Part shown: piece by piece, positions 12,306-50,697 of the stretch
Numbering within the stretch: position 1 is the stretch's first letter
Layout: each line of letters starts with the position of its first letter
Assembly: GCA_963716145.1 (NCBI GenBank)
Contig: OY970292.1
Location: 76,104-140,103 of the forward strand
Length of the DNA stretch: 64,000 bases
Direction: 5' to 3'
Origin: Candidatus Levyibacteriota bacterium
GTDB taxonomy: Bacteria > Patescibacteriota > Microgenomatia > Levybacterales > UBA12049
Notes under the pieces: model-generated
The model's input: only the letters and a program-made list of their open reading frames with translations
Told to the model about the DNA's origin: nothing
Database searches by the model: none
Made by a program: the position numbers and the translations under genes

Positions 12306-14620
12306 AGAAAATCTTACCTATCATTTTTCTTGCAATAATTATAGTTATTTTTTTCTCACTCTTACTTTTTAAGAATCGGCTTCCAATTCCAGCAGACACG
12401 ATTGTCGGCTTGTATCATCCATTCAGAGATTTATACGCGAAAGATTATCCAAATGGAATTGCTTTTAAAAATTTTCTAGTTACTGATCCAGTACGTCAGC
12501 AATATCCATGGAAAAATTTGACGATGAATATCGAAAAACGCTTTGAGTTGCCTCTTTGGAATCCGTATAATTTTGCCGGGACACCTCTTCTGGCCAATTT
12601 TCAATCAGCAGCTTTTTATCCCTTAAATCTTATTTTTTTGGTACTACCTTTCTCTATTGGTTGGAGTGGCTTAGTCTTGCTGCAGCCGTTATTGGCAGGA
12701 GTTTTTCTATATTTATATCTAAATAATCTAAAGATCAGTCGTTATTCTAGCATTTTTGGAGCGGTTAGTTTTGCGTTTTGTGGATTCTCGGTTGCATGGC
12801 TTGAGTGGGGAACCGTATCACACACCGCAATATGGTTACCTTTAGTACTTTTGTCGATAGATAAAATTATGCATAACTCAACTGACTCAAAAATTTCAAA
12901 TTTCAAATTTCAAATTTCAAATAAACAAATAAGTGTTAAGAAAAATTTAGTTTGGGCACTATTATTTTTATTTTCTCTTACCTCATCTTTTTTTGCAGGG
13001 CATTTGCAGATATTCTTTTATTTAATTATTGCATCATTTTCTTACTTCTTATTTCGTTGGTTTCAAGAGGGGAGAAATAAAAAAACTTTAATTATATTCT
13101 TAATTCTCATCTCTTTATTCTTAATACTGACAATTATTCAATGGTTGCCTACTCTACAATTTATTTTTCAAAGTGCGCGCGGAGTAGACCAAAATTGGCA
13201 AAAGGAAGGATGGTTCATTCCTTGGCAGAATCTTGCTCAATTTGTAGCGCCTGATTTTTTTGGTAACCCCACAACGCTTAACTATTGGGGAGTTTGGAAT
13301 TACGCTGAATTCATAGGATATATAGGGATAGTGCCATTAATAATGGCGGCTTGTGCATTTTTTCAAAGACGAGAAAAATTGATTATTTTTTTTGGCTCAA
13401 TCTTTTTTCTATCTCTTTTATTTTCCTTGCCCACTTTTTTTGCAATGATTCCTTTCCAGCTCCAAATCCCATTCATATCAACTGCTCAACCTACCCGACT
13501 TTTATTTTTAACAGACTTTTCGCTTGCAGTTCTGGCAGCCCTGGGAATTGATGCGTTGATGAGTTATAACAAAAGGAGGCAAATAATTTATCCACTATTA
13601 TTGGTTGGTCTTATCCTTGTTGGTTTATGGGTTTTTGTTTTTGCAGGCGCAAATTTATTGCACTCTATATCCTTGGAAAATTTAAATACCGCAAAGCGCA
13701 ATCTTTATTTCCCAACGATTATCTTTGTTGTTACAGCAGTCCTACTTTTTTCCTACGTTTCCTTAAAAAATAAAGCATATAGGTCGCTAATTTTAGTTTT
13801 GCTATTAATATTTACAGTTGGCGATCTTCTTCGGTTTACATATAAATTTACTCCCTTTACTCCTCAAAAATATCTTTATCCTAATACAAAAGCTATCGAT
13901 TTTTTGCAAAAACAAAAAGGACAATTCCGTATCATGACAACGGATGACAGAATTTTGCCCCCAAATTTCTCCATAATGTATCAGTTGCAGACACTTGACG
14001 GCTATGACCCTTTATATCTGTTAAGATACGGAGAATTAGTTACGGCGTCAGAGAGGGGAAGACCGGATATAAAACCTCCATTTGGTTTTAATAGAATAGT
14101 TACTCCACATAATTTTGAATCCAACCTGGTGGATTTGATGAATGTCCGTTTTGTTCTGAGTTTGTCTGAGATAAAATCCCCAAAATTGGAAAAGGTTTTT
14201 GAAGAAGGGCAGACAAAAATTTATAAAAATAATTCCGCTTTTCAAAGAGCTTTTTTGGTAAAAAAGATAATAGCTGTTTCCGGTAAACAAAATGCAATTA
14301 ATACACTATTTAATAGTGAAATTGATTTGAAGCAAACTGCGATAGTTGAAAATTGGAATAATAAAAAAACTGACTTTGCTCAAGGATCAGTAAGTATTGT
14401 AGAATACAAAGAGAATAATATTAGTGTTTTGGTTCAAAGTAGACAAGAAGCATTTTTAGTTCTGGTGGATACTTTCTATCCGACCTGGAGTGCACAAGTT
14501 TGTATGTCCGATGACAGTAGTTGTAAAGAGGCAAAAATTTATCTGACCGACTATAATTTCCGCGGGATAGTAATTCCAAAAGGAGTACACAAGGTAATAT
14601 TTAAGAACTCATTATTATGA
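12302..14620 (+). CDS. YfhO-family polytopic membrane protein (GT-C-type glycosyltransferase); carries an in-frame AAATTTC x4 array
   Basis: 772 aa; C-terminal DTFYPTWSA...GIVIPKGVHKVIFK is the characteristic YfhO end; ATGA overlap with flanking genes. Confidence 0.6.
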   Translation: MKKILPIIFLAIIIVIFFSLLLFKNRLPIPADTIVGLYHPFRDLYAKDYPNGIAFKNFLVTDPVRQQYPWKNLTMNIEKRFELPLWNPYNFAGTPLLANFQSAAFYPLNLIFLVLPFSIGWSGLVLLQPLLAGVFLYLYLNNLKISRYSSIFGAVSFAFCGFSVAWLEWGTVSHTAIWLPLVLLSIDKIMHNSTDSKISNFKFQISNKQISVKKNLVWALLFLFSLTSSFFAGHLQIFFYLIIASFSYFLFRWFQEGRNKKTLIIFLILISLFLILTIIQWLPTLQFIFQSARGVDQNWQKEGWFIPWQNLAQFVAPDFFGNPTTLNYWGVWNYAEFIGYIGIVPLIMAACAFFQRREKLIIFFGSIFFLSLLFSLPTFFAMIPFQLQIPFISTAQPTRLLFLTDFSLAVLAALGIDALMSYNKRRQIIYPLLLVGLILVGLWVFVFAGANLLHSISLENLNTAKRNLYFPTIIFVVTAVLLFSYVSLKNKAYRSLILVLLLIFTVGDLLRFTYKFTPFTPQKYLYPNTKAIDFLQKQKGQFRIMTTDDRILPPNFSIMYQLQTLDGYDPLYLLRYGELVTASERGRPDIKPPFGFNRIVTPHNFESNLVDLMNVRFVLSLSEIKSPKLEKVFEEGQTKIYKNNSAFQRAFLVKKIIAVSGKQNAINTLFNSEIDLKQTAIVENWNNKKTDFAQGSVSIVEYKENNISVLVQSRQEAFLVLVDTFYPTWSAQVCMSDDSSCKEAKIYLTDYNFRGIVIPKGVHKVIFKNSLL
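12889..12922. repeat. Perfect tandem heptanucleotide array (AAATTTC)x4, in frame inside the YfhO-family gene (encodes ...KISNFKFQISNK...)
   Basis: aaatttc at 12891-12897, 12898-12904, 12905-12911, 12912-12918, then partial aaat. Confidence 0.9.
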
Positions 14621-15570: not shown

Positions 15571-16292
15571 AATTATCCATAATTATTCCTGTTTTTAATG
15601 AGGAAAACACAATTGTTCCTGTTCTTGAAAAAGTGGAAAAGCTTATAATTCCCGGGGTTAGTAAGGAAATAATCGTAGTGGACGATGGATCGACCGATGG
15701 TTCTGCATCGGTAATTTCAAATTTCAAATCTCAAATTTCAAATAATAAAAATTATAAGTTTATTTATCATAAAAAAAATCAAGGAAAAGGAGCTGCTGTT
15801 ATATCCGGTATTAGAAACGCGACCGGGGATTATATTACTATTCAGGATGCGGATCTTGAATATGACCCATCCTACTTCACATCACTTATTGTTCCAATCA
15901 AAAAAGGCCAGGGATTAGTGGTTTACGGTACCCGGCTTAAGAGACTGCCTCATCTTTTTAACGAAGAAAGCCACGGCCTTTTCCTTTTGCATTATTTAGG
16001 GAATAGGTCTTTAAGTTTTATAACCAGTGTTTTGTACGGTCAATGGATAACCGATATGGAAACTTGTTACAAAATCTTTCCACGAGAGGCTGTTAAAGGT
16101 ATGAAGTTAAATGCAAAAGGTTTTGAGTTTGAACCTGAAATTACGGCAAAGCTGCTTAAGAAAAAATTCAAGATTGTCGAACTGCCGATATCTACTGTCC
16201 CTCGGGGTTATAACGAAGGTAAAAAACTACACACAGTTAGAGACGGAGCAAAAGCGCTTTGGTCACTGGTTAAATATCGGTTTGTTGATTAA
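15567..16292 (+). CDS. GT2 polyprenol-phosphate glycosyltransferase (DPM synthase-like); carries an in-frame AAATTTC array
   Basis: LSIIIPVFNEE...VVDDGSTDGS...IQDADLEYDP motifs. Confidence 0.7.
   Translation: MKLSIIIPVFNEENTIVPVLEKVEKLIIPGVSKEIIVVDDGSTDGSASVISNFKSQISNNKNYKFIYHKKNQGKGAAVISGIRNATGDYITIQDADLEYDPSYFTSLIVPIKKGQGLVVYGTRLKRLPHLFNEESHGLFLLHYLGNRSLSFITSVLYGQWITDMETCYKIFPREAVKGMKLNAKGFEFEPEITAKLLKKKFKIVELPISTVPRGYNEGKKLHTVRDGAKALWSLVKYRFVD
15713..15744. repeat. Tandem heptanucleotide array (AATTTCA)x4, one variant unit aatctca, in frame in the DPM-synthase-like GT2
   Basis: units at 15713-15719, 15720-15726, 15727-15733 (variant), 15734-15740; encodes ISNFKSQISNN. Confidence 0.9.
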
Positions 16293-17816: not shown

Positions 17817-19502
17817 ATGAAAAAGCTTTTTAATACAAAGATTATATTAGCTATTGTAGTTCTAATTGCGGCATTTTTACGCTTTTATCAACTTGGAGTA
17901 AATCCGCCCTCATTAACCTGGGATGAGGTGGCATGGGGATACAATGCCTATTCGATAGGGGTTGACGGACGTGATGAATTCGGAAGATTGCTGCCATATG
18001 ACTATCTTGAATCCTTCGGAGATTTTAAACCTCCAATGTATGCATATTTAAGCGTGATTCCCGTTAAGATTTTTGGTCTTAATGAATTTGCAACCCGCTT
18101 TGCCTCAGCGTTTTTTGGAACCTTAACGGTATTAATTACTTATTTTTTGGTGAAAGCTTTGTTCTCATTAAATCCGAAACAAACTCAAAATTCAAAAAAT
18201 TCATTGGGAATTGGGAATTGGGAATTGGGAATCCCAATAGTAGCAACAATATTCTTGGCAATCTCACCGTGGCACATTATGCTCTCCAGAGCTGCTTTTG
18301 AAGCAAATGTCGCAACCTTCTTTTTAGTTTTCGGAGTTACAAGTTTTCTTTATTGGATAAAGGAAAAAAATACATTTCTCATATTCTCAGTACTGTCGTT
18401 TGCTTTCTCACTTTATACATTTAATTCTGCCCGCGTAGTAGCTCCGCTTTTGGTTAGTATGTTGGTTGCGGGATTTTGGAAAACATTGTGGCAAAGGAAA
18501 AATGCTGTTATCGTAGCAGGGATTATCGGATTTTTGCTTGTTGCACCCCTTGTCCCCTTCTTGCTATCTCCACAGGCAGGATTGAGATATAAAGAGGTAA
18601 ATATTTTTTCTGATCCGCAAATTGTAGAAAAGGCTAATCAGCAAATCACCAATGATAATAACGTCTGGTGGTCAAAGATTATCCATAATCGGCGCGTAGG
18701 ATATGGATTATCTTATTTGCAACATTATTTAGATAACTTTTCCCCTGACTTTCTGTTTATAAAGGGGGACGGAAATCCCAAATTTTCCACGCAAGAAGTC
18801 GGACAAATGTATATTTGGTCATTACCATTTTTTATCTTAGGCGTACTTTTTCTATTTAAAAAGAGAGAAGGATATTGGTGGATAGTTCCTGCTTGGTTAT
18901 TGCTCGGTATTGTTCCCGCGGCAGTAGCGCGTGAGACTCCTCATGCTTTAAGGACTGAGGGGACATTGCCTACATTTCAAATACTTGAGGCTTATGGTTT
19001 TATAGGAACTCTCTTCTTTCTTAAGGAGCATTTCAGAAGGAAGATTCTTACTTTCACCTGCGCAATCTTCGGGATAATATATATGTTGAATTTTGTTTAT
19101 TTTCTTCATGGTTATTATGTTCATTATGCATGGAAATGGTCAGGTGAATGGCAGTATGGTTATAAAGATTCGATCACTTTTGTTAAAGATAATGAACAGC
19201 AATTTGATAAAATTTTCGTAACAGACTCTCTAGGAAGACCGTATGTTTATTACCTATTTTATCTACATATTTCTCCTGAAACTTTCAGAAATAATGTAAA
19301 AGTAGAACGTGATGCATTCGGATTTGTAAAAGTAAAAGAAGTTGGAAAATTTTCTTTTGAGAGTAATATTAGCGGAAGCAAGCTTAAAGGTGAGAAAGTT
19401 TTATATATTAGTGATATGAAAAATATTCCTCAAAAGGCAAAAGTTCTAAAAACGTTTTATCTCAAAAACGGAAGCCCAATATTAATTGCATACAGTATGT
19501 AA
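17817..19502 (+). CDS. PMT/ArnT-like GT-C glycosyltransferase (GT39/GT83-like); carries an in-frame TTGGGAA x4 array
   Basis: 561 aa; N-terminal loop WDEVAWGYNAYS with DE motif, ~12 TM helices, large C-terminal domain. Confidence 0.5.
   Translation: MKKLFNTKIILAIVVLIAAFLRFYQLGVNPPSLTWDEVAWGYNAYSIGVDGRDEFGRLLPYDYLESFGDFKPPMYAYLSVIPVKIFGLNEFATRFASAFFGTLTVLITYFLVKALFSLNPKQTQNSKNSLGIGNWELGIPIVATIFLAISPWHIMLSRAAFEANVATFFLVFGVTSFLYWIKEKNTFLIFSVLSFAFSLYTFNSARVVAPLLVSMLVAGFWKTLWQRKNAVIVAGIIGFLLVAPLVPFLLSPQAGLRYKEVNIFSDPQIVEKANQQITNDNNVWWSKIIHNRRVGYGLSYLQHYLDNFSPDFLFIKGDGNPKFSTQEVGQMYIWSLPFFILGVLFLFKKREGYWWIVPAWLLLGIVPAAVARETPHALRTEGTLPTFQILEAYGFIGTLFFLKEHFRRKILTFTCAIFGIIYMLNFVYFLHGYYVHYAWKWSGEWQYGYKDSITFVKDNEQQFDKIFVTDSLGRPYVYYLFYLHISPETFRNNVKVERDAFGFVKVKEVGKFSFESNISGSKLKGEKVLYISDMKNIPQKAKVLKTFYLKNGSPILIAYSM
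18204..18245. repeat. Perfect tandem heptanucleotide array (TTGGGAA)x4 ending in the palindrome ATTGGGAATCCCAAT, in frame in the PMT-like gene
   Basis: units 18204-18210, 18211-18217, 18218-18224, 18225-18231; encodes LGIGNWELGI. Confidence 0.9.
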
Positions 19503-32938: not shown

Positions 32939-33567
32939 AGATTTTGATGGTTAGCTCCTTTCTCCCGTATCCGCTTTTTTCGGGAGGGCAGGTCAGGCTT
33001 TTTAATCTTATTAAGGAATTGTCAGCGCGTCACGAGATAACATTAATTTGTGAGAAACGTGAGAATCAAACCGCTGAGGATGAAAATGAGCTCGGGAAAA
33101 TCTGTAAAAAAATTATAACAGTTAAAAGGAAGAAGCAATGGTCAATGAGAAATATATTGAAAACTGCATTCTCTTCAAATTCATTTTTGGTTACAGGCCA
33201 CACCAACATAGAAATGCAAAATAAAATAAAAGAAGAACTAGAAAGAGAAAAGTACGATTTAATTCATGTGGAAACTTATTATATAATGCAAAATTTACCC
33301 TCTGCATTATCAATTCCTGTAGTTTTGGCGGAACACAACATAGAGTATCAGGTTTACAAGAAGTATGTTGACCAAGGATCGCTATTTTTAAAACCTTTGC
33401 TTTCTTTGGATGTTGCAAAAATACAGAAAGAGGAGGAAAGTTTTTGGAAAAAAGCTGATAAATTAATTGCAGTTTCAGGGGATGATAAAAACGCGATGGA
33501 GAAAAAGGGGCTTATGCCCGTTATTGTTGCGAATGGGGTGGACACTGAGAAATTTAGTTTTAAACTA

Positions 33568-33597
33568 GAATTAAGAATTAAGAAGCAAGAATTAAGG
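33568..33597. repeat. Tandem heptanucleotide array (GAATTAA)x4, one variant gaagcaa, in frame in the frameshifted GT4
   Basis: units 33568-33574, 33575-33581, 33582-33588 (variant), 33589-33595, then gg; encodes LELRIKKQELR. Confidence 0.9.
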
Positions 33598-33680: not shown

Positions 33681-33715
33681 AATTTCAAATTTCAAATTTC
33701 AAATTTCAAATTCTC
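33681..33715. repeat. Tandem heptanucleotide array (AATTTCA)x4 plus variant aattctc, in frame in the same GT4
   Basis: units 33681-33687, 33688-33694, 33695-33701, 33702-33708, 33709-33715 (variant); encodes ISNFKFQISNSQ. Confidence 0.9.
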
Positions 33716-34140
33716 AATTAAAATTGTGGATTGTTGGGAGAGAGATTCCGGACTCTATAAAAAACTTAACAAATGATCAAGATATCATTTTTGATGAAGA
33801 AGGATCAGCTAGGCCAACGGAAGAATTATTCCAGGAGGCTGATATTCTTTTTGGCTCCGATCAGAATAGGCGGAGGGACTAGTTATAAAATACTTGAGAG
33901 CATGAGCAGTGGTACGCCCGTCGTAACTACAGAACTTAGCGCAAGTGTAATTGATGCAAAGGATAGCATAAATATTATGGTAGGCAAAAATGCTCAAGAG
34001 CTATCTGAAAAAACATTAAAGCTTCTTTCTGATAAAAGACTTTATCAAGCAGTGGCAAAAAATGGGCGGAGCTTGATTGAAGAAAAATACACATGGAGAA
34101 AAATCGCCAATGAGCTGGATAAAGTTTATAAAAGTCTGAT

Positions 34141-35079: not shown

Positions 35080-36195
35080 ATGAAAATTGGCATTGATGCA
35101 AGGCTTTGGAGCGAAACTGGAGTTGGGAGATATATCCGCAATTTGGTAAAGGAACTTCAAGTATTGGACAAGAAGAATGAGTATGTTTTGTTTGTCAGAA
35201 AGGCAGATTACGATAAGGTTAAATTTCAAATTTCAAATGATAAATTCCATATCAGAATTGCGGATATCCGTTGGCACACAATTGACGAGCAGCTGAAGCT
35301 TCCTCATATACTAGATAAAGAAAATGTGGACTTGGTTCATTTTCCTTATTTTTCTGTTCCTGTGGGTTACAAAAAGCCTTTCGTTATGACAATTCATGAT
35401 TTGATTCTTAATCATTTCCCGACAGGTAAAGCCTCCAAGCTCCCTCTGTATTTATATCAATTAAAGCGTCTTGGCTATGATTATGTAGTAAAAAAAGCAG
35501 TGAAGAGAGCGCAAAAAATTATCGTTCCCCTCAATGCTGTCAGAGATGATTTGGTAGCAACACTTGGAGTCAAAGAAGAAAAAGTTGCTGTAACGTATGA
35601 AGGCTTTGATGAAAAAATAATCAGTAAAGATAAGTCATCGATTGATGATACTAAATATTTTTTGTATGTTGGGAACGCATATCCACACAAGAATATCGAA
35701 AGACTAATAAAAGCCTTTTCCCTTTTTAGAAAAGAACAAAATGCAGAAGTACATTTGCTGTTGGTTGGCAAGGACGACTATTTTTATAAAAAACTTTCAG
35801 AAAAAATAAGGAAAGAAAATTATTCTGGAATTTTGATAAGGAACAATGTAAAAGATTATGAGCTTGCAAATTATTATAATAACGCTATAGCGCTCATTTC
35901 CCCCTCTCTTATGGAAGGATTTGGACTTCCGGTGCTTGAAGCAATGGCATCATCATGTGCCGTACTTGCGTCAGATATTCCCTCACTCAGAGAAGTGTGC
36001 GAAGGTGCGGCGTTATACTTTAATCCGCATTCTATTACAGAGATAAAAGATAAAATGAATCTTATTTTTAATACTGACAAAGAAACTCTAGAAAAATTAA
36101 TAAATAAAGGATTAGATCGTTCTCAGCAATTTTCCTGGAAAAAAATGGCAGAACAAACACTGAAAGTTTATGAAAGTTGCTTTAGTTTACGATAG
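35080..36195 (+). CDS. GT4 family glycosyltransferase; carries short AAATTTC x2 array
   Basis: MKIGIDARLW N-term and SPSLMEGFGLPVLEAMASSCAVLASDIPSLREV C-term. Confidence 0.7.
   Translation: MKIGIDARLWSETGVGRYIRNLVKELQVLDKKNEYVLFVRKADYDKVKFQISNDKFHIRIADIRWHTIDEQLKLPHILDKENVDLVHFPYFSVPVGYKKPFVMTIHDLILNHFPTGKASKLPLYLYQLKRLGYDYVVKKAVKRAQKIIVPLNAVRDDLVATLGVKEEKVAVTYEGFDEKIISKDKSSIDDTKYFLYVGNAYPHKNIERLIKAFSLFRKEQNAEVHLLLVGKDDYFYKKLSEKIRKENYSGILIRNNVKDYELANYYNNAIALISPSLMEGFGLPVLEAMASSCAVLASDIPSLREVCEGAALYFNPHSITEIKDKMNLIFNTDKETLEKLINKGLDRSQQFSWKKMAEQTLKVYESCFSLR
35221..35238. repeat. Short tandem array (AAATTTC)x2 plus partial, in frame in GT4 35080..36195
   Basis: units 35221-35227, 35228-35234, then aaatgat; encodes KFQISND. 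Confidence 0.8.
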
Positions 36196-37258
36196 GATCA
36201 ATAAATGGGGCGGTGCTGAGAGGCTTCTCCTTGCGCTTCATGAATTATTCCCTGAAGCGTCTCTTTATACATCCGTTTATGATAAGGAAAAAGCTCTTTG
36301 GGCAGAAGTTTTTGATATTAGAACTTCTTTTCTGCAAAACATTCCATTTGCCTCAACAAATCATGAACTTCTTGCAGCGTTTATGCCTTTGGCATTTGAA
36401 AGTTTTACTTTTGACGAGTATGATTTGGTGATCTCACTAACTAGTGAGGCAGCAAAAGGAATTATCACAAAACCCGGTACAATACATATTTGTTATTGCC
36501 TAACCCCTACCCGGTATTTGTGGAGCGGTTATGACGAATACTTCAAGAGTGATAGTCTCAAAATTATGTCAAAACCTATTGTTTCAGGTCTTCGCAGGTG
36601 GGATATAGCAGCGAGCAGACGGCCAGATGCCTTTATCGCGATATCCAAGGAAGTTCAAAAAAGAATTAAAAAATATTATGGAAGAGAATCTGATTTGGTT
36701 TATCCGCCAGTGACATTGAGCGCAAGAGCGCAAGAGCGCAAGAGCGCAACGAAGGAAGGAGAATATTTTCTAGTTGTGTCACGTTTGTCAAAGTTTACGG
36801 GATATAAGAGAGTTGACTTGGTTATTGAAGCTGTCAATGAACTTAAAATTCCTTTGAAAATTATTGGGGATGGAAGCTTGAGAAAAGAACTGGAACAAAT
36901 GGCAGGACCGACAATCGAATTTATAGGAAATGTTAATGATGATGAATTGGGTGGATATTACAAAAACTGCAAAGCATTGATCTTTCCGGGGAAAGAGGAC
37001 TTGGGGTTGGTAATGATTGAGGCACAAATGTTTGGAAAACCGGTTATTGCTTACAAGGAAGGTGGAGCTGTAGAATTGGTGATTGAGGCCAAGACGGGAA
37101 TATTTTTCCAGCAGCAAACAAAAAAATCATTAATTGAAGCGCTACAGAAATTTGAAAAAACCAAATTTGATTCAAAAGCCTGCAGAAAAAATGCAGAAAA
37201 ATTTAGCATGGATAAATTTAAGCAAAATTTCTTGTCGGTTGTGAATAAATTGATTTGA
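36170..37258 (+). CDS. GT4 family glycosyltransferase; carries GAGCGCAA x4 array
   Basis: MKVALVYDRINKWGGAERLL N-term, FPGKEDLGLVMIEAQMFGKPVIAYKEGG C-term; 26-nt overlap with upstream gene. Confidence 0.65.
   Translation: MKVALVYDRINKWGGAERLLLALHELFPEASLYTSVYDKEKALWAEVFDIRTSFLQNIPFASTNHELLAAFMPLAFESFTFDEYDLVISLTSEAAKGIITKPGTIHICYCLTPTRYLWSGYDEYFKSDSLKIMSKPIVSGLRRWDIAASRRPDAFIAISKEVQKRIKKYYGRESDLVYPPVTLSARAQERKSATKEGEYFLVVSRLSKFTGYKRVDLVIEAVNELKIPLKIIGDGSLRKELEQMAGPTIEFIGNVNDDELGGYYKNCKALIFPGKEDLGLVMIEAQMFGKPVIAYKEGGAVELVIEAKTGIFFQQQTKKSLIEALQKFEKTKFDSKACRKNAEKFSMDKFKQNFLSVVNKLI
36718..36749. repeat. Perfect tandem octanucleotide array (GAGCGCAA)x4, in frame in GT4 36170..37258
   Basis: units 36718-36725, 36726-36733, 36734-36741, 36742-36749; encodes SARAQERKSAT. 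Confidence 0.9.
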
Positions 37259-43744: not shown

Positions 43745-43821
43745 TTGACAAGGTGAATTTTTGGGTCCAGAATATATAAATAGGTAAAAGTAGGAAAAAG
43801 TAGGTCGTCTGCAAAGCAGAC
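43745..43821 (+). promoter_or_regulatory. mraZ upstream control region: TTGACA box, three TAGG direct repeats at 10-bp phasing (MraZ-box-like) and a 6-bp-stem hairpin
   Basis: ttgaca 43745-43750; aaaTAGG/taaaagTAGG/aaaaagTAGG at 43775-43804; gtctgcaaagcagac inverted repeat 43807-43821; ATG of mraZ at 43865. Confidence 0.45.
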
Positions 43822-44371: not shown

Positions 44372-45271
44372 ATGGGTAATACATATCACACGACAGTACT
44401 TTTAGAAGAAACAGTAGATGGTTTAAATGTTAAAGAAGGGAAGAAATATATCGACGCTACATTGGGAGGAGGAGGACACAGTTTTGAGATTTTGAAGCGC
44501 GGAGGGAGAGTATTGGGTTTGGATGCAGATCAAGATGCGCTTGATTTTGTTCAGGAAGAATTAAGAATTAAGAATCAAGAATTAAGGTTTGAAAAGAAAA
44601 ATTTAACCTTAGCAAAGGGAAATTTTAAGGACATTGATAAAATTGCAACAGAATTTGGATTTGAAAAAGTTTTTGGCATTGTTTTTGATCTTGGGGTCTC
44701 GAGCCACCAGCTAGACACTGTGGAAAGAGGGTTTAGTTTTCAAAGCACTGGCCCTTTAGACATGCGGATGGATCGAGATCTTAGCGTCAAAGCTGCGGAT
44801 TTGGTAAATATCCTAACGAAAGGAGAGCTTTATGAGTTATTTAATAAACTGGGTGAGGAGCATTTTGCTCACGCCATATCAGAAAGTATTGTTAGCAGTC
44901 GCCGAGTAAGTCCAATTAAGACGACATCAGAATTGGTAGAAATTGTAAGAAGCGCCGTGCCAAGACTGAAACATAATATTAATCCGGCGACTAAAGTATT
45001 TCAAGCGCTGAGAATTGCGATAAACGATGAGTTTAATAACTTGAAGGAAGCTCTACCAAAAGCACTGGAGTTATTGGATGCACATGGAAGATTAGCCGTA
45101 ATCGCGTTTCATTCACTTGAGGATAGAATAATAAAAAATCAATTTAAAGAATTTGCTGAAATGGGACAGGGAGTCATTATTACAAAAAAACCGATTAGTC
45201 CAAGTTTTGCTGAAATTGAAGGAAACAGGCGCTCAAGAAGCGCAAAATTAAGAATTATTGAAAAGATATAA
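44372..45271 (+). CDS. rsmH: 16S rRNA (cytosine1402-N4)-methyltransferase RsmH; contains in-frame GAATTAA x4 insertion
   Basis: YHTTVLLEETVDGL...DATLGGGGHS...FDLGVSSHQLD...RGFSF signature; follows mraZ. Confidence 0.85.
   Translation: MGNTYHTTVLLEETVDGLNVKEGKKYIDATLGGGGHSFEILKRGGRVLGLDADQDALDFVQEELRIKNQELRFEKKNLTLAKGNFKDIDKIATEFGFEKVFGIVFDLGVSSHQLDTVERGFSFQSTGPLDMRMDRDLSVKAADLVNILTKGELYELFNKLGEEHFAHAISESIVSSRRVSPIKTTSELVEIVRSAVPRLKHNINPATKVFQALRIAINDEFNNLKEALPKALELLDAHGRLAVIAFHSLEDRIIKNQFKEFAEMGQGVIITKKPISPSFAEIEGNRRSRSAKLRIIEKI
44558..44587. repeat. Tandem heptanucleotide array (GAATTAA)x4, one variant gaatcaa, in frame inside rsmH (encodes EELRIKNQELR, apparent ~10-aa loop insertion)
   Basis: units 44558-44564, 44565-44571, 44572-44578 (variant), 44579-44585, then gg. 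Confidence 0.9.
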
Positions 45272-47283: not shown

Positions 47284-47300
47284 TTAAATGAATTTAAATA

Positions 47301-48356
47301 TTAGTTATTTCTAAATCTATAGCCTGTCCCTATTACTGTTTCTATAATATCTATCCCGAGCTTACTGCGTATCCGTCCTATGTGAATATCTACGGCTTTT
47401 TCCTTAGCCTCACCAGCCATTACACTGTCTTGTAACTGAGAACGGCTTAATATTAATCCCGGATTATCATGCAGTCTCAAAATAACTGTGTGCTCAGCTA
47501 TTGTAAGATTGCCTTCGTCATTATTTTGTTTAAACAGTAAGCTATAACGGTAAATTTTGGTATTATTTGGTAGTACTATTGCTTCAGCTGCTATATCATC
47601 AACTTCTCCTAATCTGAAACCAAGTCCCAGCTCAGTAATAATGGTTATGGGATTTTCAGGATCCGGTTCAATTTTGTCACGCAGTTCACCTATACGAACG
47701 TCAATAGTATTCATACTTACAGAATCGAAATATTCTGGAGACCAAGCTTTTCTACCAATCTCCTCACGCGATACTACTCTGCCAACATTGTCAGATAATA
47801 CCATTAGTACATCATGCTCTTTTGGAGGAAGGGTAAATTTTTCACCACGAACAAACAATTCGCGGCTATGGCGGAAGAATTTAATTTCACCAGGTAATTT
47901 TACTGCATCTGATTCATCATGTTCACCTAGTCTATATCCTAAGCCTTTTTCCGTAAAAATAATTGTCGGACTTTGCGGATCCGGTTCAATTTTGTCACGC
48001 AGTTTTTTTATAGCCACCCCTAAAGAACTTTTAGACATAAAACCCTCAGGCCAGGCTACTTCAAGCAGCCTGTCTCTGCTTACAGCCCTACCTCTTCTTC
48101 CTAGTAGTTCCCTAAGCAAGCTGATATCTGTTTTTGATAATTTTTTTCTTTCACCATCTACATAAGCTGTTCCTTCAAGGGGAACATAGCTGACTCTATC
48201 TTTTAAAAGTTCAATTCTTGCCGGTTTTCCCTGTTCTGACTGGGGTTCACCCCTTGAAAAATCCACGATTAATAGTGGTTCGCTTCTATGTGTTGACGTA
48301 GGTATAATTCCTGATTCGACATTTGGCGTTACTCTGGTCACTCGTTCAAAATACAT
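47301..48356 (-). CDS. Standalone DNA-binding protein with three tandem OmpR/PhoB-type winged-helix (Trans_reg_C) domains, no receiver domain
   Basis: Three repeats of the pattern ...L...E..LL..L....G..VSR..L....W........L...I..LR.K......P..I.T..G.GYRL (residues ~60-145, ~160-250, ~270-350). Confidence 0.55.
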   Translation of the reverse strand: MYFERVTRVTPNVESGIIPTSTHRSEPLLIVDFSRGEPQSEQGKPARIELLKDRVSYVPLEGTAYVDGERKKLSKTDISLLRELLGRRGRAVSRDRLLEVAWPEGFMSKSSLGVAIKKLRDKIEPDPQSPTIIFTEKGLGYRLGEHDESDAVKLPGEIKFFRHSRELFVRGEKFTLPPKEHDVLMVLSDNVGRVVSREEIGRKAWSPEYFDSVSMNTIDVRIGELRDKIEPDPENPITIITELGLGFRLGEVDDIAAEAIVLPNNTKIYRYSLLFKQNNDEGNLTIAEHTVILRLHDNPGLILSRSQLQDSVMAGEAKEKAVDIHIGRIRSKLGIDIIETVIGTGYRFRNN

Positions 48357-48396
48357 AAGAGGGATTTTATCCTATAACCAATTCTAAATCAATATT

Positions 48397-48723
48397 TTAG
48401 ATGATTTTTGATCCGTTGGGGACTTTGGATTTGGGCTTGAGCGGCTGAAGTTTGTCACCGGTAGCAAGAAGCATTCCTTGTGACTCTTCCCCCATAAGTT
48501 TTCGGGGTTCAAGGTTTATAACAAATATAAATTGTTTATTTATCAAGTCAGCCGGTTTGTGATGTAGCTTAATTCCTGAGAGTATATTGCGCGTTCCTTC
48601 ATCTCCAAAATTTACGGTTAATCTCAATAATTTATCTGATCCTTCTTTTTCTACACATTCCATAACGGTTCCGACACGCAAATCAAGTTTGGCAAAATCA
48701 TCAAATTGTACAATTGGTTTCAT
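48397..48723 (-). CDS. tRNA-binding domain protein (CsaA/Myf-like, EMAP-type OB fold)
   Basis: FAKLDLRVGTV...EKEGSDKLL...VNFGDE...ILSGI...INLEPRKLMGEESQGMLLA motif of the tRNA_bind domain. Confidence 0.6.
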   Translation of the reverse strand: MKPIVQFDDFAKLDLRVGTVMECVEKEGSDKLLRLTVNFGDEGTRNILSGIKLHHKPADLINKQFIFVINLEPRKLMGEESQGMLLATGDKLQPLKPKSKVPNGSKII

Positions 48724-48765
48724 TTAGATATTTTAACACAAAATTTAGAATTATGTCCTTGATTT

Positions 48766-50043
48766 TTGCTATACTATCGGTACAGCAATATGTGGCAAAA
48801 AACAAAAAATCAATATCATCTGGGGCAAGCGCTACTTGCAAATATTATTTACATGTTTCCATCCAGAAAACTTAAAATAATTGGAGTCACGGGAACAGAT
48901 GGAAAAACAACTACTGCAACCCTCATTCATCATATTTTAATAAACTCGGGACATAAAGCTTCTCTTATCACCACGGTCGGCGCCGTAATAAATGATAAAT
49001 TTTCGGATATTGGCTTTCATGTTACAACTCCCGGGCGGTTCGCGCTGCAGTCGTATCTGAAAAGATCAAAAAAACAAGGCTCTGAATATATTGTGCTTGA
49101 ACTGACTTCTCATGCGCTTGATCAATACCGTGCTTTTGGAATCCCAATTGAGGTTGGTGTTCTGACCAATGTCAGTAACGAGCATCTGGATTATCATAAA
49201 ACTTATGAAAAGTATGTGGCTGCGAAATTAAAATTGCTCAAAAAGGCAAAAATTGCAATTGTAAATAAGGACGATAAGTCGTATAAGTTTGCAAAAGTCT
49301 CTTTAAAAAATAAGAGAATAATAACTTATGGAATGAAAAAAGACGCTGATGTTAATCCGCACAATTTTCCATTCAAAACAAAATTAATTGGCAAGTTTAA
49401 TCTCTATAATTCTCTAGCTGCTATTTCAGTGCTTCAGCAAATGCACGTAGCTGAAGAAGATATAAAGAAGGGTATTTTAAGTTTTATGCTACCGGCAGGC
49501 AGACAGGAGATAATTTATGATAAAGAATTTACAGTAATTAATGATTTTGCTCATACGCCAAATTCTTTTTTAAGCGTTCTTCCTGAAATAAAGAAACTCA
49601 CCAAACGCAAGCTAATTCATGTTTTTGGAGCTGCGGGAAAAAGAGATAAATATAAAAGAGCGGAAATGGGTAAAATATCCTCGGACTATGCGGATGTTAT
49701 TATTCTCACAGCTGAAGATCCGAGAAACGAAATAATTGAGGAGATTAACAGGCAGATAATGTCGGGAATTACAGATGCCGAGTTTGGGATCGTAAATTAC
49801 GAAGCACTCAAAAATAGAGAAGTGTATCTGGACACAAAAAACAAATATGTTATCTCAATTCCTGACAGGAGAGACGCGATTAATTTTGCGATTGAAATTG
49901 TCCAAAAGGGTGATTTAGTTTTACTAACCGGCAAGGGTCATGAAAAATCTATAGACTATGGAAAAGGGGAGGAGCCATGGAATGAGAAGGAAACGGCATG
50001 GCAAGCAATTGAAAGGAATAAAGAATCAAGAATCAAGAATTAA
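48766..50043 (+). CDS. murE: Mur ligase family protein, MurE-like (P-loop GVTGTDGKTTT, DNPR-like EDPR motif) lacking the N-terminal UDP-binding domain; probable ATG start at 48790; stop codon lies inside a GAATTAA-type array
   Basis: Central and C-terminal Mur ligase domains present; P-loop only ~40 residues from the N-terminus (about 110 in E. coli MurE); TAEDPRNE motif. Confidence 0.55.
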   Translation: MLYYRYSNMWQKTKNQYHLGQALLANIIYMFPSRKLKIIGVTGTDGKTTTATLIHHILINSGHKASLITTVGAVINDKFSDIGFHVTTPGRFALQSYLKRSKKQGSEYIVLELTSHALDQYRAFGIPIEVGVLTNVSNEHLDYHKTYEKYVAAKLKLLKKAKIAIVNKDDKSYKFAKVSLKNKRIITYGMKKDADVNPHNFPFKTKLIGKFNLYNSLAAISVLQQMHVAEEDIKKGILSFMLPAGRQEIIYDKEFTVINDFAHTPNSFLSVLPEIKKLTKRKLIHVFGAAGKRDKYKRAEMGKISSDYADVIILTAEDPRNEIIEEINRQIMSGITDAEFGIVNYEALKNREVYLDTKNKYVISIPDRRDAINFAIEIVQKGDLVLLTGKGHEKSIDYGKGEEPWNEKETAWQAIERNKESRIKN

Positions 50044-50045
50044 GG
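50016..50045. repeat. GAATTAA-type array (gaataaa gaatcaa gaatcaa gaattaa gg) forming the last codons and TAA stop of the murE-like gene
   Basis: units 50016-50022, 50023-50029, 50030-50036, 50037-50043; stop TAA 50041-50043 is inside the last unit. Confidence 0.9.
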
Positions 50046-50049
50046 AAAC

Positions 50050-50697
50050 ATGAAAATTTATAAATTTAGTAAATTTAAATCAAATAATAAAATAGCTAGT
50101 GGTATTTCGACTAAAGATTTTGGATCAATGAAAAATGAAGATAATTCAATAAACGGGAAAAATCTGGAAATATTTTTGAAATCTTTAGGCTCGGGTGAGA
50201 ATGTAGTCCGCATGAGGCAAATACATAGTGGAAATGTTGAGGTGGTAACAAACAATGTAAAATCTCCAATTGAAAACACAGATGGTTTGATAACGGATAA
50301 AAAAAATGTTTCACTCTGTGTTCTAACTGCTGACTGCCTGCCGATTGTGTTTTATGATATCCAAAAACAAGTCATAGGAATTGCTCATGGAGGAAGAAAA
50401 GGACTACAATCTGGGATCATAGAAAACATTGTAGAAAAATTTAAAAATGATTTTAAAAGCGATTCAGCTGATATTATTGCTGGAGTAGGTCCGGGGATTG
50501 AGAAAAAATGCTACGAAGTTGATGGAGAACTTATAGATATTAGAAAATGGGCCAATGATTTATTACTTAAGGAGGGAATTAAGAGGGAGAATATAGAGAA
50601 TTTAGAAATATGTACAAAATGCGATTCGGAAGAGTTCTATTCCTATCGAGGAGGAGATAGCTATAATCGGTTTGCTACAGTTATAAGTTTGGTATGA
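50050..50697 (+). CDS. pgeF: Peptidoglycan editing factor PgeF/YfiH (DUF152 purine nucleoside phosphorylase/laccase-like)
   Basis: HSGNVEVV...TADCLPIVFYD...AHGGRKGL conserved His/Cys/His residues. Confidence 0.6.
   Translation: MKIYKFSKFKSNNKIASGISTKDFGSMKNEDNSINGKNLEIFLKSLGSGENVVRMRQIHSGNVEVVTNNVKSPIENTDGLITDKKNVSLCVLTADCLPIVFYDIQKQVIGIAHGGRKGLQSGIIENIVEKFKNDFKSDSADIIAGVGPGIEKKCYEVDGELIDIRKWANDLLLKEGIKRENIENLEICTKCDSEEFYSYRGGDSYNRFATVISLV

What the first reader, a model, noticed from the sequence alone, without database searches (positions are those of the whole stretch)
47301..48356. Standalone triple winged-helix (OmpR-type) DNA-binding protein inserted antisense into the dcw cluster
The 351-aa protein consists of three consecutive Trans_reg_C-like wHTH domains with no receiver, sensor or other domain. 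Such tandem triplication is unusual. OmpR-family wHTH domains bind direct repeats, so three in one chain could read a three-fold direct repeat. The mraZ upstream region in this window contains exactly such a 3x phased repeat, but any link is speculative. The gene lies on the reverse strand between ftsI and murE, breaking normal dcw synteny.
Basis: partly seen in the sequence, partly recalled or inferred. Interest (0 to 1): 0.65.

Follow-up and report, generated by a model that had tools for sequence, protein, structure and literature searches.

The report
Receiver-less triple winged-helix DNA-binding protein
This is a real gene for a protein built only from three OmpR-type DNA-binding domains in a row, with no sensor part. 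It is a fast-changing accessory gene sitting in a variable slot of the cell-division gene cluster, and it is not connected to the three-fold repeat upstream of mraZ.

Summary
The ORF at 47301-48356 (-) is real. It encodes 351 aa with three Trans_reg_C (OmpR/PhoB-type wHTH) domains, each significant on its own (60.7, 64.7 and 46.8 bits against a cut-off of 26.2). There is no receiver, transmembrane or other domain. An independent assembly carries it at 350/351 identity. AlphaFold2 gives three complete wHTH folds joined by short acidic linkers, plus a disordered 44-aa N-terminus. No solved structure covers more than one domain.

- **What interrupts the dcw cluster:** the lineage-wide antisense interrupter is the upstream tRNA_bind gene, seen in all 50 informative metagenome loci. 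The multi-wHTH gene occupies a variable slot at the tRNA_bind/ftsI convergent junction. That slot is empty in 43 of 50 loci and holds NUDIX, TPR or HAD genes in others.
- **How the gene varies:** family members with 2 or 3 domains sit in this same slot in five loci, counting the window, but are only about 30% identical. The closest relative has MraZ at 96% and FtsI at 85%, yet its slot gene is 32% identical and has two domains.
- **The mraZ repeat and heptamer arrays:** the 3x 10-bp repeat is the MraZ operator. Both it and the heptamer arrays occur equally in loci that lack the gene.

The best reading is a constitutive, receiver-independent, multi-module DNA-binding regulator with unknown targets.

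The parts
47301..48356 (-). CDS of the 351-aa receiver-less protein: disordered N-terminus followed by three OmpR/PhoB-type wHTH domains
   Evidence: ORF. Pfam Trans_reg_C x3. AF2 model. Identical but for one residue in a second assembly.
48225..48356 (-). N-terminal segment, residues 1-44, predicted disordered. It carries the family motif (I/L)(I/V/F)(F/V)DF(S/R): 'LLIVDFSRG' here
   Evidence: pLDDT about 31. No Pfam match. The motif is shared with P0035, P0036, P0039 and P0105.
47928..48215 (-). wHTH domain 1 (residues 48-143), basic (net +6, pI 9.8)
   Evidence: 60.7 bits alone. Four-stranded sheet, three helices and a hairpin in the model. Charge.
47610..47906 (-). wHTH domain 2 (residues 151-249), acidic (net -3, pI 5.4). 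The positions equivalent to PhoB R200, R201 and R219 are G, E and L
   Evidence: 64.7 bits alone. Model. Charge and contact positions.
47313..47582 (-). wHTH domain 3 (residues 259-348), a distinct subtype ending 'RSKLGIDIIETVIGTGYRF' in place of the 'KIEPDP' loop
   Evidence: 46.8 bits alone. The subtype is shared as the last domain with P0035, P0040, P0036 and P0044.
47596..47686 (.). Copy 1 of a 91-nt internal direct repeat (end of helix 3, the wing and the linker of domain 2). It pairs with 47914-48004
   Evidence: 75% identity with a perfect 28-nt core, spaced 318 nt apart, which is one domain. Suggests gene conversion between domains 1 and 2.
47914..48004 (.). Copy 2 of the internal direct repeat (same part of domain 1)
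48364..48392 (-). Promoter-like site belonging to the wHTH gene: TTGATT-N17-TAAAAT, ending 7 nt before the ATG (leaderless or very short leader)
   Evidence: Consensus scan. The same TTGATT...TA(T/A)AA(A/T) arrangement occurs in the equivalent gap of L019, L022 and L099.
48397..48723 (-). Upstream co-directional gene: standalone tRNA_bind protein of 108 aa (MetRS C-terminal / Trbp111 / CsaA-like). This is the lineage-conserved antisense gene within the dcw cluster
   Evidence: Pfam tRNA_bind at 82.9 bits. NCBIfam. Antisense between ftsI and ydjM/murE in all 50 informative metagenome loci.
48730..48759 (-). Promoter-like site of tRNA_bind with an extended -10 (TGnTAAAAT) 6-7 nt before its ATG
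   Evidence: conserved TG-n-TA(A/T)AAT in the other loci
47284..47300 (.). 17-bp convergent junction between the ftsI stop and the wHTH stop, with no terminator-like site. This is the variable slot's boundary
   Evidence: Similarity to L099 stops at 47296.
43780..43804 (+). Three 10-bp phased boxes ATAGG/GTAGG/GTAGG just downstream of the mraZ promoter (TTGACA 43745-43750, -10 CAGAAT 43768-43773). This is the MraZ operator, examined and excluded as part of this feature
   Evidence: PMC12957436.

Best explanation
The gene encodes a receiver-independent DNA-binding regulator of the OmpR/PhoB wHTH class. Three DNA-binding modules are fused head to tail in one chain by 7-11-residue acidic linkers.

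In canonical OmpR/PhoB regulators, phosphorylation-driven dimerisation of the receiver domains places two wHTH domains in tandem on direct repeats spaced 10-11 bp apart. Here covalent concatenation would replace that step. The protein would then be constitutively competent to bind a composite site of roughly 30 bp, with activity set by its own expression from a sigma-70-like promoter rather than by a signal.

The recognition-helix positions differ between the three modules, so the three sub-sites should be non-identical. That explains why no identical triple repeat is visible nearby. The gene is an accessory, rapidly diverging member of a small family. It occupies a variable slot at the convergent tRNA_bind/ftsI junction of the dcw cluster in a small-genome lineage, probably Candidate Phyla Radiation (the organism was not identified).

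Shown: the architecture, the fold, the absence of sensor domains, synteny, hypervariability and the gene's own promoter-like site. Inferred: DNA binding by all three modules, head-to-tail geometry and the target genes. The adjacent divergent tRNA_bind/murE promoters and the gene's own promoter are the default candidates.
For: - **Domains:** three individually significant Trans_reg_C domains and nothing else.
- **Structure:** the AF2 model has three complete wHTH folds (10-residue-block pLDDT mostly 72-92), low-confidence linkers, a disordered N-terminus and pTM 0.40, meaning beads on a string. Foldseek matches each domain to DNA-bound OmpR-family domains (VicR, KdpE, PhoB, ToxR, RpaA) with target TM-scores of 0.8-0.9.
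- **DNA-contact positions:** the scaffold and backbone-contact positions equivalent to PhoB W184, R203, T217, G220 and Y223 are largely kept in all modules. The positions equivalent to 193, 194, 197, 198, 200, 201 and 219 vary between modules and between orthologs.
- **Synteny:** the same architecture and slot occur in four other loci at 28-36% identity.
- **Promoter:** a promoter-like site of its own is conserved in the gap in four loci.
- **Recurrence at the locus:** a second, unrelated kind of receiver-less wHTH gene sits on the other side of tRNA_bind in L045 and L089. This hints that the locus attracts local regulators.
Against: - No DNA target was found. The only three-fold phased repeat nearby belongs to MraZ.
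- Domain 2 is net acidic and lacks three basic contact residues, so it may not bind DNA.
- The same slot holds unrelated genes (NUDIX, TPR, HAD) or nothing in most relatives. Position alone is therefore weak evidence for a dcw-related role.
- The promoter-like count in the region is not far above shuffles (10 against 6.1 +/- 2.2).
- The MSA behind the model has only 7 sequences.
Confidence: 0.55

Rival explanations
1. Rapidly diversifying modular DNA reader. The array is a hypervariable cassette whose modules are shuffled, gained, lost and converted to track changing DNA targets such as phage, mobile-element or host DNA. This would be analogous in logic to R-M HsdS target-recognition domains or to zinc-finger arrays, rather than to a housekeeping regulator.
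For: - The closest relative, L099, has MraZ at 96%, FtsI at 85% and tRNA_bind at 77%, but its slot protein is 32% identical, with 2 domains instead of 3 and a different last-domain type.
- Nucleotide similarity of 72-74% on both flanks vanishes exactly across 47297-48412.
- Domain number varies from 2 to 6 among the standalone arrays.
- An internal 91-nt repeat with a perfect 28-nt core suggests gene conversion between modules.
- The presumed base-contact positions are the most variable.
- Paralogs P0039 and P0044 lie in variable regions next to Fic, RHS, IS1595 and TraG-like genes.
Against: - No hit to any PADLOC defence model and no adjacent effector gene.
- At about 74% nucleotide identity synonymous sites are saturated, so weak purifying selection alone could give about 30% identity. 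FtsL and Cu-oxidase_4 also diverge strongly.
- No positive-selection test was possible.
Confidence: 0.17
2. Architectural or partly non-DNA-binding protein. One or more modules, especially the acidic domain 2 and the disordered N-terminal motif, serve protein-protein contacts, or the protein coats AT-rich DNA non-specifically like a nucleoid-associated protein.
For: Domain 2 is net -3 with G, E and L at the PhoB R200, R201 and R219 positions. Domain 2 of P0039 is likewise acidic. The whole protein has pI 6.2 and acidic linkers. A short N-terminal motif is conserved in a disordered region. There is no sensor domain.
Against: Domains 1 and 3 are basic and keep the backbone-contact scaffold. In other orthologs the middle domain is basic (P0035 +1, P0040 +3). 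OmpR-type domains are not known as non-specific coaters (established knowledge).
Confidence: 0.15
3. One reading: the three wHTH domains read the three-fold phased repeat upstream of mraZ (or the heptamer arrays) and so regulate the dcw cluster.
For: Three modules and three boxes at 10-bp period in the same cluster. The gene resides inside the dcw cluster in five loci.
Against: - The boxes are conserved in loci without the gene: 16 of 20 under a strict pattern, with GTGGG variants in L068.
- They match the published MraZ operator in sequence, number, spacing and position at the TSS (PMC12957436).
- The three recognition helices differ, so identical repeats are not the expected target.
- Heptamer arrays are lineage-wide, have diverse units, often lie inside coding sequence, and have a 7-bp period that does not fit wHTH spacing.
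Confidence: 0.04
4. Annotation or assembly artefact: a truncated or fused response regulator, or a pseudogene.
For: None beyond the unusual architecture.
Against: The ORF is intact in two assemblies. All three domains are complete folds. Orthologs are colinear without receivers.
Confidence: 0.01

Closest known systems
OmpR/PhoB-family response regulators (for example PhoB, OmpR, KdpE, WalR/VicR, RegX3)
   Same: Each of the three modules is a bona fide Trans_reg_C wHTH: a four-stranded sheet, three helices and a C-terminal hairpin. Identity to RegX3, VicR and WalR DNA-binding domains is 25-35%, and scaffold residues are conserved. The likely DNA-reading geometry, tandem modules on sites spaced 10-11 bp apart, is borrowed from this family.
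   Different: There is no receiver domain, no phospho-acceptor and no cognate kinase gene nearby. Three DNA-binding domains sit in one chain instead of one per chain. Oligomerisation would be covalent rather than phosphorylation-driven.
Receiver-less OmpR-type regulators: ToxR/TcpP/CadC (membrane-anchored) and SARP/AfsR/EmbR (wHTH + BTAD)
   Same: They use an OmpR-type wHTH without a receiver. ToxR and CadC DNA-binding domains are structural matches.
   Different: Those have a single wHTH plus a transmembrane/periplasmic sensor or a BTAD domain. This protein has no transmembrane segment, no BTAD and three wHTH domains.
Uncharacterised tandem-wHTH proteins found here: standalone arrays of 2-6 Trans_reg_C domains, and 2-3x Trans_reg_C + STAND NTPase (AAA_16/NACHT/NB-ARC) + TPR proteins of about 1000 aa
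   Same: Tandem OmpR-type wHTH domains separated by short linkers.
   Different: The narrow family of the window protein has a specific N-terminal motif, and most members have a distinct last-domain subtype. It comprises fewer than 10 clusters among 1.84 billion representatives. None of these classes has a characterised member that I could find.
MraZ (the known dcw regulator that reads the three-fold repeat)
   Same: It binds phased direct repeats in the same cluster, and several DNA-binding units act on adjacent boxes.
   Different: MraZ has an unrelated fold (SpoVT/AbrB-like) and works as a non-covalent oligomer. It, and not the wHTH protein, accounts for the 43780-43804 boxes.

Membership tests
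OmpR/PhoB-type winged-helix DNA-binding domain (Pfam PF00486 Trans_reg_C) | Sequence match above the Pfam gathering score | tested here: met
   Three separate segments score 60.7, 64.7 and 46.8 bits against a cut-off of 26.2.
OmpR/PhoB-type winged-helix DNA-binding domain (Pfam PF00486 Trans_reg_C) | Fold: N-terminal four-stranded sheet, three helices, C-terminal beta-hairpin wing | tested here: met
   The AF2 secondary-structure elements show this pattern for all three domains. Foldseek target TM-scores of 0.8-0.9 to VicR, YycF, KdpE, OmpR and PhoB DNA-binding domains.
OmpR/PhoB-type winged-helix DNA-binding domain (Pfam PF00486 Trans_reg_C) | Sequence-specific DNA binding | not testable with these tools
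   Only the conservation of scaffold and backbone-contact positions could be checked. Domain 2 is acidic.
Two-component response regulator (OmpR/PhoB subfamily) | N-terminal receiver (Response_reg, PF00072) with phospho-acceptor Asp | tested here: not met
   No PF00072 hit. NCBIfam response-regulator models align only through their C-terminal 80-100 positions and score far below their cut-offs. Orthologs also lack it.
Two-component response regulator (OmpR/PhoB subfamily) | Cognate histidine kinase gene adjacent | tested here: not met
   The neighbours are tRNA_bind, ftsI and murE. The same holds in the syntenic loci.
ToxR/CadC-like membrane-bound wHTH activators | Single N-terminal wHTH followed by a transmembrane helix and a periplasmic domain | tested here: not met
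   The maximum 19-residue Kyte-Doolittle hydropathy is 0.91, so there is no transmembrane segment. There are three wHTH domains.
SARP (Streptomyces antibiotic regulatory protein) family | OmpR-type wHTH followed by a BTAD domain | tested here: not met
   No BTAD hit at E<=1.
Narrow family defined here: dcw-slot multi-wHTH proteins (P0001, P0035, P0040, P0036, P0105; paralogs P0039, P0044) | Short N-terminal motif ...(I/L)x(F/V)DF(R/S)..., then 2-3 tandem wHTH domains with 7-12-aa linkers rich in D/E | tested here: met
   Alignments A1 and A2. Domain maps. P0105 sequence.
Narrow family defined here: dcw-slot multi-wHTH proteins (P0001, P0035, P0040, P0036, P0105; paralogs P0039, P0044) | Gene located directly downstream of tRNA_bind and convergent with ftsI | tested here: met
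   Window. L019, the P0040 contig, L022 and L099. The paralogs P0039 and P0044 lie elsewhere.
Known anti-phage defence systems (PADLOC) | Match to a defence-system protein model | tested here: not met
   No family at E<=0.001 for the window protein, P0039, P0044 or P0047.

The most novel reading that the evidence does not exclude
Tandem arrays of OmpR-type winged-helix modules (2-6 per chain) may be a bacterial form of modular, rapidly re-programmable DNA reader. In this picture, covalent linkage replaces phosphorylation-driven dimerisation. Module shuffling, gain and loss, gene conversion and hypervariable recognition helices let the array track changing DNA targets such as phage, mobile-element or host DNA. 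The hypervariable cassette at the tRNA_bind/ftsI junction of this small-genome lineage would be one such locus.
Probability: 0.15. Interest if true: 0.75.

Novelty: new variant of a known kind. Interest (0 to 1): 0.42.

Why it matters
OmpR/PhoB regulators are the largest response-regulator family, and their activation is understood as phosphorylation-driven tandem dimerisation on direct repeats. A natural single-chain trimer of the DNA-binding domain with no receiver would be a genetically hard-wired version of the active state. It would be a useful test of how spacing and orientation of wHTH modules determine site recognition.

The finding also shows that small, regulator-poor genomes, probably Candidate Phyla Radiation, carry a fast-evolving sensor-less regulator family. 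The extreme divergence of this gene inside an otherwise conserved cell-division cluster raises the question of what selects for changing DNA specificity.

Practically, the work removes a tempting but wrong link: the mraZ repeat is the MraZ operator. It also relocates the real synteny anomaly to the conserved antisense tRNA_bind gene.

Tried and rejected
- **Word-indexed homolog search with the single protein and with the family alignment:** both were swamped by ordinary response regulators. Only the protein itself and P0044 came back as full-length relatives.
- **Profile of the N-terminal 80 columns alone:** no significant hit. It is too short for a database of 5.8 billion sequences.
- **Genome-contig scan with the single protein:** it returned essentially single-domain matches consistent with ordinary response regulators (only L012 had a longer match, 955 nt, not followed up). 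The source genome was not retrieved, so the organism stays unidentified. Cluster look-ups gave no names.
- **Metagenome scan with the wHTH alignment:** It was replaced by a scan anchored on tRNA_bind.
- **Exact look-up of the protein's own contig:** nothing found. ftsI did retrieve a second assembly.
- **Search for a three-fold operator of identical 6-mers at 10-11 bp period in all intergenic DNA of the window:** it found only the mraZ boxes.
- **Heptamer arrays as targets:** rejected.
- **mraZ boxes as targets:** rejected.
- **Defence and phage libraries:** PADLOC gave nothing. PHROG gave only a response-regulator-type family matched over its DNA-binding part.
- **Rfam and tRNA scans of the window:** empty.
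- **AFDB Foldseek library:** unavailable.
- **L043's 252-aa slot ORF as a divergent family member:** rejected.
- **Domain-level identity matrix:** it could not tell whether domains 1 and 2 are orthologous across proteins, because identities of 25-37% are too saturated.
Full report
**1. Observation**

The ORF 47301-48356 (-) exists and encodes 351 aa. Pfam finds Trans_reg_C in three stretches. When the protein is cut into thirds, each third passes the gathering score on its own: 60.7, 64.7 and 46.8 bits against 26.2. The first 55 residues match nothing.

NCBIfam response-regulator models align only through their C-terminal DNA-binding parts and score far below their cut-offs. No receiver, BTAD or other domain is present, and there is no hydrophobic segment. 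A second, independent assembly (Logan ERR11593400) carries the gene with 350/351 identical residues. Neither is met.

**2. Structure**

The AlphaFold2 model used a 7-sequence alignment and reached mean pLDDT 75.6 and pTM 0.40. It shows three complete OmpR-type wHTH domains at residues 48-143, 151-249 and 259-348. Each has a four-stranded sheet, three helices and a hairpin.

Residues 1-44 are disordered, and the linkers at 146-149 and 252-256 are low-confidence. The low pTM means no fixed arrangement between domains is predicted. Foldseek against the PDB matches one domain at a time to VicR, YycF, KdpE, PhoB, OmpR, ToxR, CadC and RpaA (target TM-scores 0.8-0.9, query about 0.25). A sequence search of the PDB finds no chain matched by more than one stretch. 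No tandem OmpR-type array has therefore been solved.

**3. Are all modules plausible DNA binders?**

I aligned all family domains with PhoB and OmpR. The positions equivalent to PhoB W184, R203, T217, G220 and Y223 are largely conserved. The assignment of these positions as scaffold or backbone contacts comes from my knowledge of the PhoB-DNA complex 1GXP, not from a tool.

The positions equivalent to 193, 194, 197, 198, 200, 201 and 219 differ between the three modules and between orthologs. Domains 1 and 3 are basic (net +6 and +2). Domain 2 is acidic (net -3) and has G, E and L at the R200, R201 and R219 positions. The linkers are acidic too. Three identical sub-sites are therefore not expected, and domain 2 may contribute less, or differently, to DNA binding.

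**4. Relatives**

The word-indexed search found only ordinary response regulators apart from the protein itself. The exhaustive HMMER search of 1.84 billion representatives found distant multi-domain relatives. The main ones are:

| Protein | Length | wHTH domains |
|---|---|---|
| P0035 | 357 aa | 3 |
| P0040 | 358 aa | 3 |
| P0039 | 341 aa | 3 |
| P0036 | 242 aa | 2 |
| P0044 | 245 aa | 2 |
| P0105 | 252 aa | 2 |

Larger arrays also turned up: P0047 with 4 domains, P0037 and P0135 with 5, and P0050 with 6.

The narrow family shares a short N-terminal motif...(I/L)x(F/V)DF(R/S).... Most members also share a distinct last-domain subtype ending 'R.KLG...IE..G.GY'. It amounts to fewer than ten 50%-identity clusters.

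Tandem wHTH domains are more broadly recurrent. Of the top 150 representatives, 102 have two or more domains. About 31 are standalone arrays. Many others are proteins of about 1000 aa with two or three N-terminal wHTH domains; the five I scanned combine these with a STAND NTPase domain and, in three of them, TPR repeats. The ranking favours multi-domain proteins, so this is not a frequency estimate. I found no paper describing such arrays.

**5. Genomic context**

Family members lie in exactly the same place in four other loci: directly downstream of a tRNA_bind gene and convergent with ftsI, inside mraZ-rsmH-ftsL-ftsI / (ydjM)-murE-.... These loci are L019 (GCA_035526025.1), the P0040 contig, L022 and L099. 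P0039 and P0044 are paralogs elsewhere, in variable regions with Fic, RHS, IS1595, HTH_3 and TraG-like genes.

To see the slot without bias, I anchored a metagenome scan on the well-conserved tRNA_bind protein, which is 68-73% identical between loci. I annotated the 72 loci it returned with my own scripts.

- In all 50 loci where both genes are visible, tRNA_bind is antisense between ftsI and ydjM/murE.
- In 43 of them the distance from the tRNA_bind stop to the ftsI stop is 154 bp or less.
- One has a 255-bp gap.
- Six have inserts of 0.6-4 kb encoding NUDIX, TPR or HAD proteins or unknowns.
- None has a multi-wHTH gene.

So the conserved interruption of the dcw cluster is tRNA_bind, and the wHTH gene is an occasional occupant of a variable slot. 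Two other loci, L045 and L089, carry a different receiver-less single-wHTH protein with a Cys-rich N-terminus. It lies on the other side of tRNA_bind.

**6. Hypervariability**

Between the window and L019 or L022, the dcw proteins are 56-79% identical, but the wHTH protein is 29-36% identical.

L099 is the closest relative found. Against the window its MraZ is 96% identical, FtsI 85%, RsmH 77%, tRNA_bind 77% and MurE 72%. Its slot protein is only 32% identical over 186 aa, has two domains and has a different last-domain type.

At the DNA level, 72-74% identity runs up to window position 47296 and resumes at 48413. No alignment spans the wHTH gene and its promoter gap. Several relatives with FtsI 73-79% identical to the window's (L032, L070, L033, L071) lack the gene.

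Inside the window gene, a 91-nt direct repeat spaced exactly one domain apart (318 nt) is 75% identical and has a perfect 28-nt core. This suggests gene conversion between domains 1 and 2. Because synonymous sites are saturated at this divergence, I cannot distinguish diversifying selection from weak constraint or from replacement by a paralog.

**7. Expression signals**

A TTGATT-N17-TAAAAT site ends 7 nt before the ATG of the wHTH gene. The same arrangement is found in the equivalent gap of L019, L022 and L099. tRNA_bind has an extended -10 (TGnTAAAAT) 6-7 nt before its ATG, which is conserved in many loci. Both look like leaderless or near-leaderless units.

No terminator-like site separates the convergent ftsI and wHTH genes. 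The promoter scan is only modestly above shuffles, so these sites are leads that draw their support from conservation.

**8. The proposed DNA targets**

The repeat at 43780-43804 (ATAGG, GTAGG, GTAGG at 10-bp period) lies just after TTGACA-N17-CAGAAT. The same arrangement, with GTAG(G/T) boxes, occurs in L019 and L022 and under a strict pattern in 16 of 20 loci that lack the wHTH gene. Most of the others have near variants, and L068 has GTGGG boxes.

PMC12957436 describes MraZ boxes as GTG(G/T) with six spacer nucleotides, typically three per promoter, with the TSS inside box 1. This repeat is therefore the MraZ operator. It is also the only three-fold phased 10-11 bp repeat in the window's intergenic DNA.

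The heptamer arrays occur at 0.83 per 10 kb in wHTH-less loci, against 1.09 in the window. They have diverse units and frequently lie inside genes. They are unrelated to this protein.

**9. Verdict**

This is a real, receiver-less, three-module OmpR-type wHTH protein from a small, uncharacterised and fast-diverging family. It is encoded in a variable slot of the dcw cluster.

It most likely works as a constitutively active DNA-binding regulator in which covalent linkage of modules replaces phosphorylation-dependent dimerisation. Its targets are unknown. It is a new architectural variant of a very well-known domain family and is of moderate interest. The hypervariability is its most intriguing aspect. 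The speculative link to the mraZ repeat is rejected.

Noticed in passing
window 48397-48723 (-); loci L024-L082: A standalone tRNA_bind gene (MetRS C-terminal / Trbp111 / CsaA-like, about 109 aa, 60-79% identical across loci) lies antisense inside the dcw cluster between ftsI and ydjM/murE in all 50 informative metagenome loci. Its stop is often 0-15 bp from the ftsI stop, and in two loci it overlaps it. This is the real, conserved break in dcw synteny in this lineage, and its function there is unexplained.
   Followed up: partly
window 12891-12922, 15713-15743, 18203-18232, 33567-33596, 33681-33717, 44556-44586, 50016-50044; many loci (for example L024 559-669, with 15.9 copies of CGCTAAA): Tandem arrays with a 7-nt period dominate all tandem repeats in this lineage: 43 of 51 arrays with 3.5 or more copies. 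Many lie inside coding sequence and stay in frame. They recur at the same relative position in rsmH (about 0.21 of gene length) and murE (about 0.82) in different loci, but with different unit sequences. The position is conserved and the unit is not, which I cannot explain.
   Followed up: partly
junction between the tRNA_bind stop and the ftsI stop: L029/L030, L035, L043, L057, L063: The convergent junction is a variable slot. Inserts of 0.6-4 kb there encode NUDIX hydrolases, a 706-aa TPR protein, a HAD hydrolase and proteins with no Pfam match (for example 252 aa in L043 and 640 aa in L063).
   Followed up: partly
L045 828-1439 (+); L089 309-899 (-): A second kind of receiver-less OmpR-type regulator of about 200 aa, with a Cys-rich N-terminal half and one C-terminal Trans_reg_C, sits between ydjM and tRNA_bind in two loci. 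The two are 25% identical to each other.
   Followed up: partly
proteins P0041, P0045, P0054, P0072 and P0061, among others: There is a large class of proteins of about 1000 aa with two or three N-terminal Trans_reg_C domains. In the five I scanned, these are followed by a STAND NTPase domain (AAA_16, NACHT or NB-ARC), with TPR repeats in three and a CHAT protease domain in one. None has a BTAD domain, so they are not classical SARP/AfsR proteins.
   Followed up: no
window 43745-43804; L068 and other loci upstream of mraZ: The MraZ boxes of this lineage are GTAG(G/T) rather than the usual GTG(G/T). One relative, L068, keeps GTGGG. The promoter TTGACA-N17-CA(A/G)AAT and the boxes are conserved while the rest of the leader is not.
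   Followed up: partly
window 48766-48793: murE is listed with a TTG start at 48766, but an extended -10-like TGCTATACT sits at 48766-48774 and an ATG at 48791 (MWQKTK...). The true start is probably 48791, with a short leader. The window and L022 lack the ydjM gene that separates tRNA_bind and murE in most relatives.
   Followed up: no
window 50050-50697 compared with L099 2334-3062: The Cu-oxidase_4 (polyphenol oxidase / YfiH-like) gene between murE and murC is also unusually divergent in the closest relative: 34% identity, against 72% and 68% for those two flanking genes. blastn finds no alignment across it.
   Followed up: no
window 36718-36749: A perfect octamer array, GAGCGCAA x4, lies inside the ORF 36170-37258.
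   Followed up: no
L097 2845-4953: A four-domain wHTH array protein (P0047, 479 aa) is followed directly by another Trans_reg_C protein of 187 aa on the same strand, so such genes can occur in tandem.
   Followed up: no
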